A stretch of 64,000 nt of DNA, from the sequence record NC_054912.1; one strand, given 5' to 3'. Position 1 is the stretch's first letter; every line of letters begins with the position of its first letter. The position numbers and the translations under genes are program-made. Positions 11,864 to 63,281 of this stretch are shown here, in pieces. Origin of the DNA: Escherichia phage vB_EcoM_F1. Below the pieces are notes generated by a model. That model saw nothing but the letters and a program-made list of their open reading frames with translations, was not told the DNA's origin and made no database searches.

Positions 11864-12406
11864 TTATAGATTAAATCCTTCAAAATCAAGAGTATAGATA
11901 GTGTATGTTGAATACTTTTTGTACTCATATCTATCTGCAATTCTAAATACACTTCCAGCTGGTATCATTACTTCTTGTTCATCTGAAACTAATTCCATAT
12001 TACGATAACGATGACTATCCGGAAACTTAAAGTTTGGATTGTATTCTTTACAGCGTAGAGCTTTTATAGCATACTCCTGGAAATTGAATATCATAGGAGC
12101 TTTGAATTCAAAAATAACTTGTGTGTTATACTCTAAACCGGAAGCAAAATGTAGAGCTATATTTTTATCATATGAAGCTGATACTACTTTATCAAATGTA
12201 ATAATATCAATTCCTTGATTTAACACCTGCTTAGTCTCAGCTGGAACACCTCTCCAAAGAGGTTTATCGTTTGGTTCCAAACGAGATTTGATTATTTCAT
12301 TTAACCAAGTATGGTCATCTGGTTTATTAGTAATACAATGCAATTTCAGATAAATTAAACCCTTCAGAAAGTAATTCTTCACGAATAGAAGCACGCACCG
12401 ATGCAT
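11864..12406 (-). CDS. modA: ModA-like ADP-ribosyltransferase; N-terminus appears frameshifted
   Basis: R-S-E ART motifs (LWRGVPA, VVSASYD, EQEVMIPAG); a 42-codon ORF starting at ATG 12455 (ATGA with modB stop) lies in another frame and terminates at 12327. Confidence 0.6.
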   Translation of the reverse strand: MHRCVLLFVKNYFLKGLIYLKLHCITNKPDDHTWLNEIIKSRLEPNDKPLWRGVPAETKQVLNQGIDIITFDKVVSASYDKNIALHFASGLEYNTQVIFEFKAPMIFNFQEYAIKALRCKEYNPNFKFPDSHRYRNMELVSDEQEVMIPAGSVFRIADRYEYKKYSTYTIYTLDFEGFNL

Positions 12407-12451
12407 CCATTGATTTTATTTTAAAATCTTTTAGTTGCATTACTGAGTATT

Positions 12452-13075
12452 TCATTCAACTACCTCAATATCATAAACTTTAAATGTTCCAAACGAATCG
12501 TGTAATTTTTCTTTTGAAATAGAAGTTATTCTATACTTTCCAATTGGAATCATCCATTCTTGTTCACGCACAATCATCATTAAGTTATCAGTACGCTCTG
12601 AATCTAGCCCATCAGTATCTTCATACGTGTACTTAAACTCAGTATTAGGAGAAGAAAGTATAATATCGCTGATATGGTCAGAATAATTAAAAGCTTTATC
12701 AGTTTTTAAGCGAAATATTATTTCAGTGAAATACTCAACATAAGAAAAACCACATGCTGTGTGCAAACTAGTAGTAAATGAATCTACCCTGTTCGTTGAA
12801 AACACTTCTCCAACTTGTAAATCTTTAATGAGTTCTTTTGTCGATTTTGATATACCACGATATAACTGATATGGTGATTTAGTTAAATGCTTTTTAACGA
12901 TTTTATTCAACTGCCGATGAAGAGCTTCATTCTTTTTGGCTTCCATACATTGCCAAAGAACAGACTGCTCAAAATCAGTAAATTTTTCACAGACCTTTTT
13001 ATACATATCATATTGAAAATCAACGCTTTCAGCTTTTATAGATAACTGTTCAACATCTGCAAGATTAATAATCAT
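12452..13075 (-). CDS. modB: ModB ADP-ribosyltransferase
   Basis: 207 aa, ART motifs LYRGISK / FSTNR / EQEWMIP. Confidence 0.75.
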   Translation of the reverse strand: MIINLADVEQLSIKAESVDFQYDMYKKVCEKFTDFEQSVLWQCMEAKKNEALHRQLNKIVKKHLTKSPYQLYRGISKSTKELIKDLQVGEVFSTNRVDSFTTSLHTACGFSYVEYFTEIIFRLKTDKAFNYSDHISDIILSSPNTEFKYTYEDTDGLDSERTDNLMMIVREQEWMIPIGKYRITSISKEKLHDSFGTFKVYDIEVVE

Positions 13076-19091: not shown

Positions 19092-19137
19092 ATTAACCTC
19101 TATTCATAAAAGCATTAAAAATTTGGTCATCAATAGA
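19089..19137 (-). repeat. 49-bp direct repeat, copy 1 (spans stop of 19093..19449 and start of downstream ORF)
   Basis: catattaacctctattcataaaagcattaaaaatttggtcatcaataga; 46/49 identical to copy 2. Confidence 0.6.
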
Positions 19138-19449
19138 TGGAATAGCAACCTTTTCGGCATCATTTAGCAAATCATTAATTTCATCAGATAGCATAACACA
19201 TGTGCCTTTATTTCCTGTAATTGTTACTGCACAATTACGAACGTTTTCTTTATCAAATTTTAGGTTAATATTTTCGTAGTGAAAATCCTTTAATGCCGAA
19301 TATATCTTTAAAATGAAATTGTCTTTTACTACAATAAACCCAACCTCACTATTAAAACGTGGTTCATGGAAACTGTAATAAACCTTTTCATCTATAAAAT
19401 CGTATGAAATTTTTTCCATTTTTAAATATGAAAATTCAGAACTATACAT
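19093..19449 (-). CDS. hypothetical protein (118 aa) with one G.IFV.KDN.I domain
   Basis: shares domain motif and C-terminal tail SIDDQIFNAFMN with the next ORF. Confidence 0.55.
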   Translation of the reverse strand: MYSSEFSYLKMEKISYDFIDEKVYYSFHEPRFNSEVGFIVVKDNFILKIYSALKDFHYENINLKFDKENVRNCAVTITGNKGTCVMLSDEINDLLNDAEKVAIPSIDDQIFNAFMNRG

Positions 19450-19495
19450 ATTAACCTTTATTCATAAAAGCATTAAAAATTTGATCGTCAATAGA
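19447..19495 (-). repeat. 49-bp direct repeat, copy 2
   Basis: catattaacctttattcataaaagcattaaaaatttgatcgtcaataga. Confidence 0.6.
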
Positions 19496-20083
19496 AACTT
19501 TTACTTTAGGCTGTTCTTCAAACGTTAATTCATATCCACATATTACAATTTTGTGATCGATACCAAAATACACAGAAGCAATATTATTAATATTATTTTC
19601 AGTGAAATCTAAATCAACATCAATATCTTTTTGACTAACGCTCAAAGGATAATTAATACGAATAATTCGATTATCTTTAACAAAGATTCCACCGACATAC
19701 TCTGTGCTGCGTTTAAAGTTTACACGTTTCCTAAATGAAAAATATTCAGGCTCTTTATGGGCTCGACTCATAGGGCTTAAAGTGTATTCCGAATATGAAA
19801 TATCAAATCCTACACCTTCAATATGAGCCAAAGTGTCATGATTAAACCAATTATAATCGTATGCCAAATCCATTAAATTGTAATATGTGAAAGGCACCGG
19901 ATTAACATCATATGTTGTACCTTTAAAATCTGCCCAGGCAACGATTTCGTTATCTTTAACAATTACAAAAATTGTGCCAATAAGATATCCACGGTTATTT
20001 TCATCAGGCGTTATATTATAACATTGTGCATCAGGAAATTTACCGTATTTAAACGGTGGATTTTTGTGCATATAATAAATCAT
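19451..20083 (-). CDS. hypothetical protein (210 aa) with two G.IFV.KDN.I domains
   Basis: internal duplication; same C-terminal tail as 19093..19449. Confidence 0.55.
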   Translation of the reverse strand: MIYYMHKNPPFKYGKFPDAQCYNITPDENNRGYLIGTIFVIVKDNEIVAWADFKGTTYDVNPVPFTYYNLMDLAYDYNWFNHDTLAHIEGVGFDISYSEYTLSPMSRAHKEPEYFSFRKRVNFKRSTEYVGGIFVKDNRIIRINYPLSVSQKDIDVDLDFTENNINNIASVYFGIDHKIVICGYELTFEEQPKVKVSIDDQIFNAFMNKG

Positions 20084-59261: not shown

Positions 59262-59474
59262 TCATTTTTGTCCTGTATTTACTTTATGCCGATGCACGGC
59301 CTTAACTTTATCAAGGTATTTTTCAAAATTTCGCAATCTAGTATAGTCTGCCGGAGATTGGTTGAGTGATACTTCTCGACGCAAAGCTGAAATGATATTT
59401 CCAACTTCCCTACGAATTTCATCTAATTGAAGAACAGTAAGATTGCAAAGTTGCTTTTCAGTTAATTGTAGCAT
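59262..59474 (-). CDS. hypothetical protein (70 aa)
   Basis: track ORF. Confidence 0.45.
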
Positions 59475-59516
59475 ATATACCCCTTTAGTTAGATAAACCT
59501 ATTTATAACTTTTGCA

Positions 59517-60098
59517 CTAACCGAGCTTTTTAGTTAATTCGTTCCAATGTTTTCTACACAAAGAAACATAAATTTCATCACCAATACAGATTTGATTACC
59601 TTCTTTAACTGGTGTTCCATCTTCCATTAATCGAGCTGTCATAATAGCTTTTTTACCACAATGACAAACTGCCTTTAGTTCAATAAGTTTATCTGCAATC
59701 GCCAAAAGTTCTTTAGAACCTTCAAATAATTTTCCAGCGAAATCAGTCCTTAATCCATAAGCCATAACAGGAACATTATATGTATCAACAATTCGGCTTA
59801 ATTGATGCACTTGTTCAGTTTTTAAAAACTGAGCTTCATCTACAAATACGCAATGAATATCTTTTTGTGCTTCAGCCCATTTATAGAACTCGAAAATATC
59901 CATATCATCTGTAATAATATTCGCTTCCTGCTTAATTCCAATGCGAGAAACGACTTCACAGACAGAATCGCGAGTATCAATAGCGGGTTTAAGAACTAAT
60001 ACACTCATTCCACGTTCTTTATAATTATGTGCGGCAGTCAAAAGAGAAGCAGATTTTCCAGCATTCATTGCTGCATAAGTAAAAATTAAACTCGCCAT
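59517..60098 (-). CDS. tk: thymidine kinase
   Basis: 193 aa; P-loop AAMNAGKS; C-terminal Zn site CHCG...C; recognised as T4 Tk. Confidence 0.9.
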   Translation of the reverse strand: MASLIFTYAAMNAGKSASLLTAAHNYKERGMSVLVLKPAIDTRDSVCEVVSRIGIKQEANIITDDMDIFEFYKWAEAQKDIHCVFVDEAQFLKTEQVHQLSRIVDTYNVPVMAYGLRTDFAGKLFEGSKELLAIADKLIELKAVCHCGKKAIMTARLMEDGTPVKEGNQICIGDEIYVSLCRKHWNELTKKLG

Positions 60099-60107
60099 AT
60101 CACCTTC

Positions 60108-60293
60108 TTAAAGCGTATTCACATAAGCTATTAATTCATTTTCTTTCTTATCAAACCGATCAGCAAATTCTTCCTGCTGTTCGGGAGATAACGGGCCGTA
60201 TTCATCATAAAAGGTGTTTGCTTCTGTATGCTCATCTAGAAGTTCATGGATAAGCTCAAATAATTTATCTTTTTGTTCTTTACTCAGACTCAT
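60108..60293 (-). CDS. small helical protein (61 aa)
   Basis: MSLSKEQKDKLFELIHELL..., same short-protein family as 57399..58300. Confidence 0.45.
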   Translation of the reverse strand: MSLSKEQKDKLFELIHELLDEHTEANTFYDEYGPLSPEQQEEFADRFDKKENELIAYVNTL

Positions 60294-60459
60294 ATATTAA
60301 TTTCCAGGAGTTTTAAAATAATTCGCTTTTGCTTAAATATTTCCATAGTTAAATGACCAGTATCTTTTTGACCGATTCCAATGGCAAAACCTTTATTAAC
60401 AGCGAGTTCAATTAAATTATCAAGCTCACGTAACACTTCGTATTGTAACTCAAAACTAT

Positions 60460-60666
60460 TCATTTTGGTTTACCTTCTTTAACGAAATCTGGATAAGGAT
60501 AAAATCCCGAATAAAATCCTTCACCTTTATGATTGATACATCCTTTATTAGAACAATAGCACCAATAATCGAAATCACAAGCCATTTCATCGTTGCATAA
60601 AGCAAAAACAACCGGCCACTTACACTTTTCACAATGGGCATTTTTAAGAATACTAGTTTGGCTCAT
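60460..60666 (-). CDS. Cys-rich small protein (probable Zn-binding)
   Basis: CEKC...C...C.C..C motif; ATG at 60666 overlapping upstream stop (ATGA); track ORF extends to 60687. Confidence 0.45.
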   Translation of the reverse strand: MSQTSILKNAHCEKCKWPVVFALCNDEMACDFDYWCYCSNKGCINHKGEGFYSGFYPYPDFVKEGKPK

Positions 60667-60875
60667 AACCATGTCACCTTCAAGCAATATTCTTCTACGT
60701 GCTGTTTGCGACCTTTCTTATCAATAAAGGTATATTCAACGAATGTTCCAATGTAGTCTTTATCTACATCATGTAGACTATTAATTGGGCATTTAGTACG
60801 GCAAATGCGTTCCCATTGACGAATAATTTCTGCTTTGTTTTTAGGATCAAACGGATGCGGGTAATGCACTTTCAT
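60663..60875 (-). CDS. hypothetical protein (70 aa)
   Basis: track ORF. Confidence 0.45.
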   Translation of the reverse strand: MKVHYPHPFDPKNKAEIIRQWERICRTKCPINSLHDVDKDYIGTFVEYTFIDKKGRKQHVEEYCLKVTWL

Positions 60876-61326
60876 AATCCACCACTATTAAATCAATATC
60901 AGGAGTAAACATGTCGATTAATTTAGAAACCTTATCCCAATCACCGCCAGCAATACCACAACCTATGCGTGGAATGTAAATTACTGGTTTAAACAAAAGG
61001 GTTTCTGCCTGTAGATTTAATTCTATCATGCAGTTTACTAAAGCACCATAATCAAGATTAGGACCTGGTTCGTATTGCGTATACAAGTTATAACATATGC
61101 CAAAACCATTAGGTTTATGTTTAAAAACAATAGACATATCACCGAGTTTTTCACGCGAACCATATTCAGTAGTAGTTTTATCTATTTCTAAAATTTTAGG
61201 ATAGGCCCTTGCTAATTGACCAGCTACACCACTGCCCATTGTATGAAAACAATTGCATCCATGCGCAATATTTTTACCTTCAGCGAAAAGGGCGACAATA
61301 TCGCCCTTGATATATTTTACAATCAT
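60847..61326 (-). CDS. macro-domain protein (predicted ADP-ribose binding/hydrolase)
   Basis: 159 aa with HGCNC...GSGVAG and GCGIAGGDW glycine-rich loops typical of macro domains. Confidence 0.6.
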   Translation of the reverse strand: MIVKYIKGDIVALFAEGKNIAHGCNCFHTMGSGVAGQLARAYPKILEIDKTTTEYGSREKLGDMSIVFKHKPNGFGICYNLYTQYEPGPNLDYGALVNCMIELNLQAETLLFKPVIYIPRIGCGIAGGDWDKVSKLIDMFTPDIDLIVVDYESALPASV

Positions 61327-61670
61327 CTAGTACTCAATCCTCGATTATAAGAATCTACCAAACGGTCAACCATTGAATGACAAGCGGCTTTATCTTTCTC
61401 CTCCGCAACTGAACATTCTAAGGTATTCCACTTTTTAGCATATCGTTTTAATAATGTATCGTTTTTGTATCTGCTTGATTTATCTCTTTCTCCGTCTTTA
61501 TATGCATATATTAATTTCTGTGCAAATTCAGCTTGGCATGCTTTATTTTTCCCACAATAATCTGCCGCAGTGCGGTTTACATATTCTCTAATTTCAGTAT
61601 ATGATGTATCTGCTGACGCAGAAGCAGAAAATGAAATTAATCCTATACATAAAACCAAAATTTTAGTCAT
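61323..61670 (-). CDS. secreted Cys-containing protein (115 aa)
   Basis: signal peptide MTKILVLCIGLISFSASASA. Confidence 0.5.
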   Translation of the reverse strand: MTKILVLCIGLISFSASASADTSYTEIREYVNRTAADYCGKNKACQAEFAQKLIYAYKDGERDKSSRYKNDTLLKRYAKKWNTLECSVAEEKDKAACHSMVDRLVDSYNRGLSTR

Positions 61671-62208
61671 TTACTATTTCCAAAAGTTTATTATTTTTAA
61701 GGTAATTAGCCTTTTCTAGGACTTCAGAAGCATATTTAGAACCTGCTTTAACATTCCATCCCGAATTATAAGAGGATATTGCTTTTCTTATATCGCCCTT
61801 ATGTATATTTAACCAATAAGAAAGTTCAATGTACGCCCAGGAAGCTGAATTGGATCGTTTATTCAACATTCTTTTTATTTCAGCATCGGTCATATTATAA
61901 CCAAGTTCCTTAACTCTTGCTCGCATAGTAGGCAAATAATTTTGGAACATTCCATAAGCGTGATGCTTTGGTTTAGATTTTAAATTAACTCCGCCAGAGC
62001 TTTCTTGCCATAAAATAGCAGCCATTATATGACCTAATCCGCTCTTGTGGATATTTTTATGTGTTTTATATTTTCCATCCTTAGAAAATTGTTCCCCGAA
62101 TTGATACGCGTAACGCATGTTATCGAGTTGGACATTACTGAAAGTATGCTCGGAGCTATGTGCCATCATTGAAATGGCCAATAGACCAGCGAGTAGTGCT
62201 TTTCTCAT
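61663..62208 (-). CDS. secreted lytic-transglycosylase-like (SLT domain) protein
   Basis: signal peptide MRKALLAGLLAISMMAHS; ILWQESSGG and SSYNSGWN motifs. Confidence 0.55.
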   Translation of the reverse strand: MRKALLAGLLAISMMAHSSEHTFSNVQLDNMRYAYQFGEQFSKDGKYKTHKNIHKSGLGHIMAAILWQESSGGVNLKSKPKHHAYGMFQNYLPTMRARVKELGYNMTDAEIKRMLNKRSNSASWAYIELSYWLNIHKGDIRKAISSYNSGWNVKAGSKYASEVLEKANYLKNNKLLEIVND

Positions 62209-62215
62209 GCTTACC

Positions 62216-62677
62216 TCATTGAGTTTTAATTACTGCTTTAGAAGCCTTTCCTGGTAAACGACGACTGTTAATAATTGCCATCCTACATTGAAGTGACGGG
62301 TCTTTGAACTTCGCATTAGGTTTACAAACTGTAAATCCAAGCCAAAGATTTCCATCTGTGATTTCTAAACGTCCAGGACGATATTCAACCCCATCAATAA
62401 AATCCTCGTCAATGTCAGGACGCGGAGGCATACTCAGGAATTCATTAACTTCTAAAACATGGTCTTTTATTTTATGGAATAATTCAAAAACGTATGTCTC
62501 ATCAATCTCCCGTTGAATTGCGCGATCAAGAAGATGTTGAGAATATTTTAGATGAAACGATGAGACCCCTGCTGCTTTTGATGCCTCACGAATCTCATTG
62601 TTAATTTGACGAAACTCCGACTCAAAGTGACGACGAAGCTTATTTCGACGGATAAAAACTTCTGTATTGATAGTCAT
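62216..62677 (-). CDS. regB: RegB sequence-specific endoribonuclease
   Basis: 153 aa MTINTEVFIRRNKLRRHFESEF; recognised as T4 RegB; early promoter upstream. Confidence 0.75.
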   Translation of the reverse strand: MTINTEVFIRRNKLRRHFESEFRQINNEIREASKAAGVSSFHLKYSQHLLDRAIQREIDETYVFELFHKIKDHVLEVNEFLSMPPRPDIDEDFIDGVEYRPGRLEITDGNLWLGFTVCKPNAKFKDPSLQCRMAIINSRRLPGKASKAVIKTQ

Positions 62678-62704
62678 GTTATTCTCCTCTTAACTGATAG
62701 AAAA

Positions 62705-62734
62705 ATTATACCACAGTCAAGAGGAAAAGTAAAC
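62705..62734 (-). promoter_or_regulatory. T4-type early promoter upstream of regB
   Basis: minus strand GTTTACttttcctcttgactgTGGTATAAT. Confidence 0.5.
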
Positions 62735-62736
62735 AG

Positions 62737-63015
62737 TTATTCTTTAAATCTAATCAATTTATTCATAGACTTTGAAACTTCTGCACGAACCTCATGTAGA
62801 TTTTTGAGCTGTTCAAGACGCTGCTCATAGTAAGCAATTTCATCTTCTTCGAGACAGTCCTGTGAATCTTCTTTAAGATAACGTGCATAGTCCTGAAAAG
62901 CGTTACGAACTACTTCCTGGAAATCATCAAGACTTTGAATTTTCTTAGGAGCAGCAGATACACGACGAGGGGCAGTATAATACTCATAACCAAACCCTGC
63001 GCTTAATTGAGCCAT
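62737..63015 (-). CDS. hypothetical protein (92 aa)
   Basis: ATG at 63015 with GAGGAA RBS; track ORF extends to 63057. Confidence 0.45.
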
Positions 63016-63281
63016 TAGTATTTTTCCTCTGGTTGGAACACAGCACGGCAAGCCCACATACTGGCTTCTTTGAGTTTCGTTTTAGCAATAGTTAACTGAT
63101 CGAGGCTTTCGGCGTAATTCTTCGCGAGTTCATCATCTTCACAGCTATCAAATGCTTCCCAAAATTCATCGTATAAAGCATCAAAGATAAGTCCTAAACG
63201 AACTTCAGCGTCTTTGATAGCATTCACTTTACCGATTTTCTCTTCAGTATGTGGTTTATAACCTTTAATATCTTCAATCAT
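63015..63281 (-). CDS. hypothetical protein (88 aa)
   Basis: ATG at 63281 with GAGGAA RBS; track ORF extends to 63317. Confidence 0.4.

What the first reader, a model, noticed from the sequence alone, without database searches (positions are those of the whole stretch)
60847..61326. Macro-domain protein in a genome that also encodes ADP-ribosyltransferases
The phage carries ModA/ModB ARTs and, near tk, a macro-domain protein with glycine-rich ADP-ribose-binding loops. Macro domains read or remove ADP-ribose, so the two may form a writer/eraser pair or target host signalling.
Basis: partly seen in the sequence, partly recalled or inferred. Interest (0 to 1): 0.35.

Follow-up and report, generated by a model that had tools for sequence, protein, structure and literature searches.

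The report
T4 Tk.4/AdfM macrodomain, divergent allele
This gene is a T4-type phage's copy of tk.4, a small ADP-ribose-removing enzyme that recent work on T4 showed protects the phage from the bacterial DarTG2 defence, so it is a real but already described counter-defence gene rather than a partner of the phage's own ADP-ribosyltransferases.

Summary
The ORF at 60847..61326 (- strand, 159 aa) is real and is a macrodomain: Pfam Macro E=2.4e-8, AlphaFold2 pLDDT 93.6, and best Foldseek hits to TARG1, BT1257, Poa1p and DarG. The window is Escherichia phage vB_EcoM_FN (a Tequatrovirus), positions 1-64000. By synteny (regB-vs.1-vs-[tk.4]-tk.3...tk) the gene is the ortholog of T4 tk.4.

T4 tk.4 has been annotated with an 'A1pp phosphatase' motif for about 20 years. 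A November 2025 preprint made it the single T4 gene needed to plate on DarTG2 hosts and renamed it adfM. The writer/eraser idea with ModA/ModB is not supported. The family occurs in about 2,770 phage records against about 1,010 with ModB-like ARTs. In this record modA carries an 11-bp frameshifting deletion while tk.4 is intact.

Two details go beyond the literature I read:
- This allele is only 60% identical to T4/T2 Tk.4, although the flanking genes are 93-100% identical. That points to an internal allele swap.
- The position of the DarG/TARG1 catalytic lysine holds a glutamine, invariant across the family, as in SCO6735, a proven thymidine-ADPr DNA hydrolase. The protein therefore works like DarG but is not a DarG-type member.

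Anti-DarT2 activity of this allele is inferred, not shown. Interest is low.

The parts
60847..61326 (-). tk.4 / adfM-like CDS, 159-aa stand-alone macrodomain (FN/RB3-type allele)
   Evidence: ORF; Pfam Macro; synteny and the 'tk.4' note in RB3 and T4; structure.
61219..61263 (-). aa 22-36, HGCNCFHTMGSGVAG: loop 1 with invariant H22, G23, N25, C26, G33, A35. N25 aligns with SCO6735 N27, the DarG Asn and PhiKZ AdfM N23.
   Evidence: Mutagenesis of the equivalent Asn is reported.
61075..61089 (-). aa 80-84, NLYTQ. Q84 occupies the position of TARG1 K84, DarG K80 and SCO6735 Q85.
   Evidence: HMM alignment; MAFFT alignments. Invariant in 43 family members and present in 8 of 8 distant phage homologs.
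60937..60972 (-). aa 119-130, PRIGCGIAGGDW: diphosphate-binding loop 2. G122 and G124 align with SCO6735 G126 and G128. A126 sits where TARG1 has D125.
60857..61250 (.). Segment of tk.4 that is only about 40-77% identical in DNA to T4, between flanks that are 93-100% identical (allele swap or mosaic).
   Evidence: 60-nt sliding identity; protein identities (tk 99.5, tk.3 92.9, tk.4 58.5, vs 100, vs.1 100, regB 99.3%).
61323..61670 (-). vs (valyl-tRNA synthetase modifier). Its TGA stop overlaps the tk.4 ATG (ATGA), suggesting translational coupling.
60663..60875 (-). tk.3 homolog. Its start overlaps the last 29 nt of tk.4.
11864..12455 (-). modA, disrupted by an 11-bp deletion relative to T4 (42-aa and 180-aa ORFs).
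19451..20083 (-). adfA (T4 61.2 homolog), another anti-DarT factor in the same window.
   Evidence: Pfam PF23813 AdfA E=4.7e-138; 72% identical to T4 gp61.2.

Best explanation
The gene encodes a stand-alone ADP-ribosylglycohydrolase of the TARG1/ALC1-like macrodomain class, orthologous by position to T4 Tk.4 (AdfM). It is made from the co-directional regB-vs.1-vs-tk.4-tk.3 gene block; that block is early or middle in T4 (my own knowledge, not tested here). It most likely removes the ADP-ribose that the host toxin DarT2 attaches to thymidines in single-stranded phage DNA. This would restore replicable DNA and make the phage resistant to DarTG2 defence. Catalysis is predicted to follow the SCO6735 route: Gln84, held by Asn25, positions the distal ribose; Gly122 and Gly124 bind the diphosphate; the water is activated through the backbone. 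It is not predicted to follow the DarG/TARG1 lysine route. Shown here: macrodomain identity, fold, orthology, and conservation of the SCO6735-type residues. Shown by others for T4's own allele: the genetic requirement on DarTG2 hosts. Inferred: that this 60%-identical allele has the same activity, and the chemical mechanism.
For: Macro fold and motifs. Synteny with T4 and RB3 tk.4. T4 tk.4 was the only gene depleted on DarTG2 hosts, and a clean knockout sensitised T4 (bioRxiv 10.1101/2025.11.20.689424). T4 and T2 lacking adfA and adfN remain DarTG2-resistant, so a further factor was expected (PMC11825919). SCO6735 is a sequence relative (E=9.7e-8; E=2.8e-16) with Gln in place of the catalytic Lys. 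It hydrolyses thymidine-linked ADPr-DNA, and Q85A, N27S and G128E abolish or strongly reduce that activity (PMC9411070). The equivalents Q84, N25 and G124 are invariant in 43 family members, and Q84 is kept in phage homologs down to 29% identity. An unrelated-branch phage macrodomain, PhiKZ gp104, removes DarT2 marks in vitro, so the strategy is established in phages (PMC13309987). The same window also encodes AdfA, so this phage stacks anti-DarT factors.
Against: The genetic evidence is for the T4/T2-type allele, which is only 60% identical and differs in loop 2 (GAGIGKGNW against GCGIAGGDW). No biochemistry exists for any Tk.4 allele in the papers read. The protein is acidic (pI 5.3) and lacks the extended lysine-bearing 'mobile loop' that SCO6735 uses for DNA binding. 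PhiKZ AdfM, however, is equally acidic (pI 5.05). It shares H22 and T29 with Poa1p H23 and S30, so activity on small-molecule ADPr derivatives cannot be excluded. In other phages, family members sit beside NAMPT or Pnk genes, which hints at other roles for some members.
Confidence: 0.72

Rival explanations
1. Eraser for the phage's own ADP-ribosyltransferases: Tk.4 reverses or limits Alt/ModA/ModB arginine-ADP-ribosylation (or ModB RNAylation) of host proteins, forming a writer/eraser pair.
For: An ART (ModB) and a macrodomain co-occur in the same genome. Arginine-specific macrodomains are known to exist (MavL, cited).
Against: Family distribution: 2,769 phage records against 1,009 with ModB-like ARTs, and the family occurs in many phage groups without a ModB-like ART detectable at E<=1e-5. 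modA is broken here while tk.4 is intact. tk.4 was a DarTG2-specific hit in the T4 screen. The closest characterised relatives act on thymine/uracil-, phosphate- or acidic-residue-linked ADPr. No MavL-like hit appears.
Confidence: 0.04
2. Small-molecule ADP-ribose-derivative hydrolase, the historical 'A1pp phosphatase' annotation. It would dephosphorylate ADP-ribose-1''-phosphate or deacylate O-acyl-ADP-ribose as metabolic clean-up linked to RNA repair or NAD turnover.
For: Poa1p is among the best sequence and fold hits. H22 and T29 align with the Poa1p residues H23 and S30 that its depositors mutated. Databases name the family 'phosphatase' or 'Poa1p_like'. Homologs lie beside NAMPT in PAK_P2 and Pnk in Vibrio phage K571. 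Some bacterial homologs have NADAR or NUDIX neighbours.
Against: The T4 RNA-repair route (Pnk plus Rnl1) does not produce Appr>p or Appr-1''-p (established knowledge). The T4 knockout has a specific DarTG2 phenotype. Matches to MacroD/YmdB-type deacetylase models are negligible (14.5 bits against a cut-off of 291).
Confidence: 0.1
3. Broad nucleic-acid de-ADP-ribosylase. It would protect phage DNA and RNA from several host ART toxins (DarT2 variants, uracil-ADPr on RNA, phosphate-end ADPr), with DarTG2 being only the first phenotype found. The two deep alleles would differ in spectrum.
For: SCO6735 and TARG1 act on T-ADPr DNA and U-ADPr RNA, and TARG1 also acts on phosphate-linked ADPr. There is strong local allelic divergence (60% against 93-100% in flanking genes), with both alleles common (307 and 224 records at >=90% identity).
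Against: No data exist on any substrate for Tk.4. T4 is sensitive to the mRNA ADP-ribosylase CmdTAC (abstract), so protection is not universal.
Confidence: 0.12

Closest known systems
T4 Tk.4 = AdfM (anti-DarT factor Macrodomain), bioRxiv 10.1101/2025.11.20.689424
   Same: Same genomic slot between vs and tk.3. Same size class (159 aa against 155 aa). The first 38 residues are identical. Same N25 and Q84 motifs.
   Different: Only 60% identical overall. Loop 2 has the family consensus GCGIAGGDW here, against the atypical GAGIGKGNW in T4 and T2. Four extra C-terminal residues. The DarTG2 phenotype was shown only for the T4 allele.
SCO6735 (PDB 5E3B) and BT1257 (2AFC/2FG1): Gln-type members of the ALC1/TARG1-like macrodomain class
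   Same: Gln at the catalytic-Lys position, the conserved Asn, and the GCG-x-AGG loop. SCO6735 hydrolyses thymidine-linked ADPr-DNA through these residues.
   Different: About 26% identity. The loop after the Gln is 5-6 residues shorter and lacks the equivalent of Lys89. The protein is acidic rather than basic (pI 5.3 against 9.5). It has H-T in loop 1 where SCO6735 has G-G.
DarG antitoxin macrodomain (PDB 5M3I, 5M31, 7OMU) and PhiKZ gp104 'AdfM' (PMC13309987)
   Same: Same fold (Foldseek E about 1e-7 to 4e-8, TM 0.73-0.78). Conserved Asn. Same proposed reaction, removal of DarT2's thymidine-ADPr. Short post-strand loop.
   Different: Catalytic Lys80 is replaced by Gln. No C-terminal DarT-binding domain. 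No adjacent darT. NCBIfam DarG score is 27.8 against a cut-off of 250. PhiKZ gp104 is a true DarG-like Lys-type protein (E=9e-25 to Mtb DarG) with only marginal similarity to this protein.
Human TARG1/OARD1 (PDB 4J5R/4J5S)
   Same: Best structural match (E=3.5e-10, TM 0.72/0.82). TARG1 also removes T-ADPr from DNA.
   Different: Both residues of the TARG1 catalytic dyad, K84 and D125, are replaced (by Q84 and A126).
Yeast Poa1p (PDB 6LFQ-6LFU), ADP-ribose-1''-phosphate phosphatase
   Same: N-terminal half aligns without gaps. H22 and T29 correspond to Poa1p H23 and S30. This is the source of the 'phosphatase' annotation.
   Different: Weaker match over the C-terminal half. No known source of the Poa1p substrate in T4 infection.

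Membership tests
Macrodomain superfamily (Pfam PF01661) | Score above the curated Pfam cut-off over the whole domain | tested here: met
   34.4 bits against 22, profile positions 2-117 of 118.
Macrodomain superfamily (Pfam PF01661) | Three-layer alpha/beta/alpha fold matching solved macrodomains | tested here: met
   AF2 pLDDT 93.6. All 50 listed Foldseek PDB hits have probability 1.00; they are macrodomains or designed enzymes built on one.
Macrodomain superfamily (Pfam PF01661) | Conserved Asn plus two Gly-rich ADP-ribose-binding loops | tested here: met
   N25, G31, G33, G122 and G124 are invariant.
T4 Tk.4 / AdfM orthologous group | Position between vs and tk.3 in a Tequatrovirus genome | tested here: met
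T4 Tk.4 / AdfM orthologous group | Confers resistance to DarTG2 | not testable with these tools
   Shown only for the T4 allele. This allele is 60% identical.
DarG antitoxin (NCBIfam NF048014) | Score above the equivalog cut-off | tested here: not met
   27.8 bits against 250.
DarG antitoxin (NCBIfam NF048014) | Catalytic lysine (TaqDarG K80) | tested here: not met
   Q84 aligns with it.
DarG antitoxin (NCBIfam NF048014) | C-terminal DarT-binding domain and an adjacent darT gene | tested here: not met
   159 aa, macrodomain only. Neighbours are vs and tk.3. No DarT2 beside the 80 closest bacterial homologs by tblastn, and DarT is not among the 25 (of 97) neighbour Pfam families the output lists.
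SCO6735/BT1257 Gln-type ALC1-like macrodomains | Gln at the TARG1-K84 position, stabilised by the conserved Asn; Gly128 equivalent | tested here: met
   Q84, N25 and G124. Their roles are described.
SCO6735/BT1257 Gln-type ALC1-like macrodomains | Extended, lysine-bearing mobile loop after the Gln (SCO6735 K89) | tested here: not met
   The loop is 5-6 residues shorter and has no Lys.
SCO6735/BT1257 Gln-type ALC1-like macrodomains | Hydrolysis of thymidine-linked ADPr-DNA | not testable with these tools
   Needs an enzyme assay.
TARG1 | Lys84/Asp125 catalytic dyad | tested here: not met
   Q84 and A126 occupy those positions.
MacroD/YmdB O-acetyl-ADP-ribose deacetylases | Match to the family models | tested here: not met
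   14.5 bits against 291, and 12.4 against 252.
Poa1p-like ADP-ribose-1''-phosphate phosphatases | Equivalents of Poa1p H23 and S30 | tested here: met
   H22 (invariant) and T29 (conservative change) in a gap-free alignment. Activity was not tested.

The most novel reading that the evidence does not exclude
T-even phages maintain at least two deeply diverged, recombining tk.4 alleles: the FN/RB3 type and the T4/T2 type. They are 60% identical inside otherwise near-identical genomes and differ in the diphosphate loop. The alleles could have different substrate or DarT-variant spectra. Both would use a lysine-independent (Gln-type) mechanism, so phages would have recruited two separate macrodomain branches against DarT2: the Gln-type Tk.4 family, present in about 5% of phage genome records, and the Lys-type PhiKZ gp104.
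Probability: 0.2. Interest if true: 0.45.

Novelty: already known. Interest (0 to 1): 0.2.

Why it matters
The gene belongs to a layered anti-DarTG toolkit in T-even phages. AdfA is in this window and AdfM is here; AdfN lies elsewhere in T4. Showing that the common FN/RB3-type allele keeps every SCO6735-type catalytic residue but lacks the DarG lysine gives a concrete, testable mechanistic prediction for AdfM. It also warns that 'DarG-like' and 'AdfM' currently cover two different macrodomain branches. For genome annotation, the widespread label 'phosphatase' for this family (about 2,770 phage records) is probably misleading. None of this changes the main picture, which is already published.

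Tried and rejected
1. I looked for DarT next to the closest cellular homologs to test an 'orphan antitoxin' origin. I took 80 bacterial loci, ran tblastn with P. aeruginosa DarT2 (nothing better than E=0.8), and ran a Pfam scan of 125 flanking ORFs plus 6 long ones. Neighbours are heterogeneous: aminoacyl-tRNA synthetase, RpoC, four NADAR, three NUDIX, two TIR. No DarT appeared among the listed families. This is limited by single-query tblastn and by only the top 25 of 97 families being shown.

2. The promoter/terminator scan of 59400..63200 found nothing above shuffled expectation. It is not informative for T4 middle or late promoters.

3. I first mislabelled T4 61.2 as AdfN. Pfam and the paper show it is AdfA, and AdfN is gene 30.3, outside the window.

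4. I first assumed that no macrodomain cleaves Arg-ADPr. That is wrong, because MavL is arginine-specific (reference seen), so the argument was softened.

5. The MacroD/YmdB reading ('O-acetyl-ADP-ribose deacetylase, regulator of RNase III', the JGI name) was rejected on NCBIfam scores.

6. I checked T2 as a possible experimental proxy for this allele. T2 carries the T4-type allele, so it gives no help.

Full report
**Identity of the window and the ORF.** Megablast places the window on Escherichia phage vB_EcoM_FN (MZ170041.1) at identical coordinates and 100% identity. About 470 other Tequatrovirus records are 95-99% identical over 59500..62700. The finding's coordinates are exactly an ATG-to-stop ORF of 159 aa on the - strand. 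In RB3 the same slot is annotated 'phosphatase, tk.4'. In T4 it is 'tk.4, contains A1pp phosphatase motif'. The A1pp match in tk.4 orthologs was already tabulated in 2006 (PMC1524935). Gene order is regB - vs.1 - vs - tk.4 - tk.3 - three small ORFs - tk, all on the - strand. The vs stop overlaps the tk.4 start (ATGA), and tk.4 overlaps tk.3 by 29 nt.

**Is it a macrodomain?** Yes, well beyond chance.
- Pfam Macro scores 34.4 bits against a gathering score of 22, over the full profile.
- PHROG 335 matches at 1.4e-70.
- Sequence hits to solved macrodomains: BT1257 3e-11, Poa1p 4.5e-9, SCO6735 1e-7, Mtb DarG 6e-6, TARG1 4e-3.
- A 43-sequence family profile (A1) gives BT1257 2.6e-20, TARG1 7e-18, SCO6735 2.8e-16, Poa1p 2.9e-15 and DarG 1.9e-12.
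- AlphaFold2 with that alignment gives mean pLDDT 93.6 and pTM 0.88.
- The best Foldseek PDB matches are TARG1 (E=3.5e-10), BT1257, Poa1p and the DarG macrodomains. The coronavirus and alphavirus MacroD-like domains score clearly lower.

The protein therefore belongs to the TARG1/ALC1-like class, not the MacroD class. NCBIfam MacroD/YmdB models give only 12-15 bits against cut-offs above 250.

**What is known about the ortholog.** A bioRxiv preprint of November 2025 (HIDEN-SEQ, 10.1101/2025.11.20.689424) screened a T4 transposon library on a DarTG2-expressing host. It found tk.4 as the single significant hit, and a clean knockout sensitised T4 to DarTG2. The authors renamed the gene adfM and proposed enzymatic removal of ADP-ribose from DNA. 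No enzyme assay was reported. This fits the earlier observation that T4 and T2 lacking adfA and adfN remain DarTG2-resistant (PMC11825919). Independently, a chimallivirus macrodomain (PhiKZ gp104, also named AdfM) removes DarT2 marks from a TNTC oligonucleotide in vitro and rescues DarT2 toxicity (PMC13309987).

**How this copy compares with T4's.** It is only 60% identical to T4 Tk.4 and to the identical T2 protein. The first 38 residues are identical; the rest is about half identical. A 60-nt sliding comparison with T4 shows about 100% identity through regB, vs.1 and vs. Identity falls to 40-77% between about 61250 and 60857, and returns to 93-97% in tk.3. Protein identities are tk 99.5%, tk.3 92.9%, tk.4 58.5%, vs 100%, vs.1 100% and regB 99.3%. 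This is an allele swap with one breakpoint inside the gene, just after loop 1.

Both alleles are common. 307 phage records carry a protein at least 90% identical to this one. 224 records carry one at least 90% identical to T4's, and 159 more fall at 80-90%. The experimental evidence therefore applies to the other allele. This allele has the family-consensus loop 2 (IGCGIAGGDW), whereas T4's is atypical (IGAGIGKGNW).

**Catalytic residues.** I recovered the sequences of BT1257, SCO6735, TARG1, Mtb and Taq DarG from the PDB alignments and PhiKZ gp104 from the paper, and aligned them. The HMM alignment and the MAFFT alignments agree on four points:
- N25 aligns with SCO6735 N27, the DarG Asn and PhiKZ N23.
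- Q84 aligns with SCO6735 Q85, TARG1 K84, DarG K80 and the PhiKZ Lys.
- A126 aligns with TARG1 D125.
- G122 and G124 align with SCO6735 G126 and G128.

H22, G23, N25, C26, G33, N80, Y82, Q84, P119, G122, G124 and W130 are invariant in the 43-member alignment. Q84 is also kept in homologs from Suspvirus, Pakpunavirus, Kuttervirus, a Bacillus phage, a Vibrio phage and an Acinetobacter phage at 29-42% identity.

SCO6735 has been shown to cleave thymidine-linked ADPr-DNA. Q85A/E abolishes that activity, and N27S and G128E strongly reduce it. Its authors proposed a lysine-independent, water- and backbone-mediated mechanism (PMC9411070). It also acts on U-ADPr RNA.

The window protein therefore has the active-site signature of a proven T-ADPr hydrolase, but not that of DarG. 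It differs from SCO6735 in having the short post-Gln loop of DarG and TARG1, without the DNA-binding Lys89, and in being acidic (pI 5.3 against 9.5). PhiKZ AdfM is equally acidic (pI 5.05).

PhiKZ gp104 is a genuine Lys-type DarG relative (E=9e-25 to Mtb DarG) with only marginal BLASTP similarity to this protein. The name AdfM now covers two macrodomain branches.

**Origin.** The 80 closest bacterial loci encode mostly stand-alone proteins of about 150-175 aa. tblastn with a DarT2 query finds nothing next to them. Their neighbours are heterogeneous. The NCBIfam DarG model scores 27.8 against a cut-off of 250. I see no sign that Tk.4 is a recently captured DarG antitoxin. It resembles the free-standing BT1257/SCO6735-like enzymes.

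**The writer/eraser idea.**
- ModB is intact (12452..13075, 95.7% identical to T4).
- modA carries an 11-bp deletion relative to T4 (nt 116-126), which splits it into 42-aa and 180-aa ORFs. None of 497 other records shares this deletion, so it is either a private mutation or an assembly error.
- ModB-like proteins occur in 1,009 phage records, nearly all enterobacterial T4-likes. The Tk.4 family occurs in 2,769 records, including hundreds of Pseudomonas, Vibrio, Acinetobacter and Aeromonas phages.
- Alt, ModA and ModB are arginine-specific. The characterised relatives of Tk.4 act on other linkages.
- Arginine-specific macrodomains do exist (MavL, reference), so the idea is not chemically impossible. 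Nothing here points to it.

**Other rivals.** The historical 'phosphatase' reading has some support: Poa1p similarity, H22 and T29 aligning with Poa1p H23 and S30, and NAMPT or Pnk neighbours in other phages. However, T4 infection has no known source of ADP-ribose-1''-phosphate, and the T4 knockout phenotype is DarTG2-specific. A broader nucleic-acid de-ADP-ribosylase role, with allele-specific spectra, remains open.

**Verdict.** The ModA/ModB pairing is wrong as far as the evidence goes. The gene is an ortholog of an already named counter-defence gene, so novelty is low. The modest additions are the Gln-type active site, which makes it SCO6735-like rather than DarG-like, and the sharply localised allelic divergence from T4.

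Noticed in passing
window 11864..12455 (-): modA has an 11-bp deletion relative to T4 (nt 116-126 of the gene). This gives a 42-aa ORF (12327..12455) and a 180-aa ORF (11864..12406) in another frame. The deletion is unique to this record among 498 phage records, so it is either a real loss of ModA or an assembly error.
   Followed up: yes
window 19093..20083 (-): An AdfA (T4 61.2) homolog lies at 19451..20083 (Pfam AdfA E=4.7e-138). It is followed directly by a 118-aa ORF (19093..19449) that matches only the C-terminal half of AdfA (E=2.3e-8) and ends in the same SIDDQIFNAFMN[KR]G motif. T4 has the 54-aa gene 61.1 at that position. This may be a partial duplication of an anti-DarT factor.
   Followed up: partly
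window 60093..60676: The tk.1/tk.2 region is not alignable with T4 (23-57% identity with many gaps). It holds three small ORFs (61, 57 and 75 aa). The 75-aa ORF (60460..60687) is cysteine-rich (CEKC...C..C.C...C..H), like a small zinc-binding protein. This is a second replaced cassette, separated from the tk.4 swap by the conserved tk.3.
   Followed up: no
literature; PhiKZ gp104 against T4 Tk.4: Two papers use the name AdfM for proteins from different macrodomain branches. PhiKZ gp104 is Lys-type and DarG-like (E=9e-25 to Mtb DarG). T4 Tk.4 is Gln-type. The two are barely similar by BLASTP (E=0.001 over 23 residues).
   Followed up: yes
L086 (PAK_P2), L089 (Vibrio phage K571), L085 (EcSzw_1): Distant phage homologs sit in different contexts. 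In PAK_P2 the gene is beside nicotinamide phosphoribosyltransferase; in K571 it is beside polynucleotide kinase. In EcSzw_1 the macrodomain carries a C-terminal extension of about 100 aa (260 aa in total).
   Followed up: no
L007, L046, L070 and other bacterial loci; A2: In three bacterial loci tested (L007, L046, L070; Hyphomicrobiaceae, Rhizobiales and Jannaschia) the homolog lies immediately downstream of a class I aminoacyl-tRNA synthetase gene. This is probably a coincidence with T4's vs neighbour. Among 125 flanking ORFs, 4 are NADAR, 3 NUDIX and 2 TIR.
   Followed up: partly
window 61663..62208 (-): vs.1 (181 aa, 100% identical to T4) has a signal-peptide-like N-terminus and weak PHROG matches to lytic transglycosylase or endolysin domains (E about 1e-5 to 5e-4). 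This agrees with the old SLT annotation.
   Followed up: no
window 61288..61308 (+): A terminator-like hairpin plus T-run lies on the + strand, antisense to the 5' end of tk.4. Three such sites were found in the region against 2.1 expected by chance, so it is probably meaningless.
   Followed up: no
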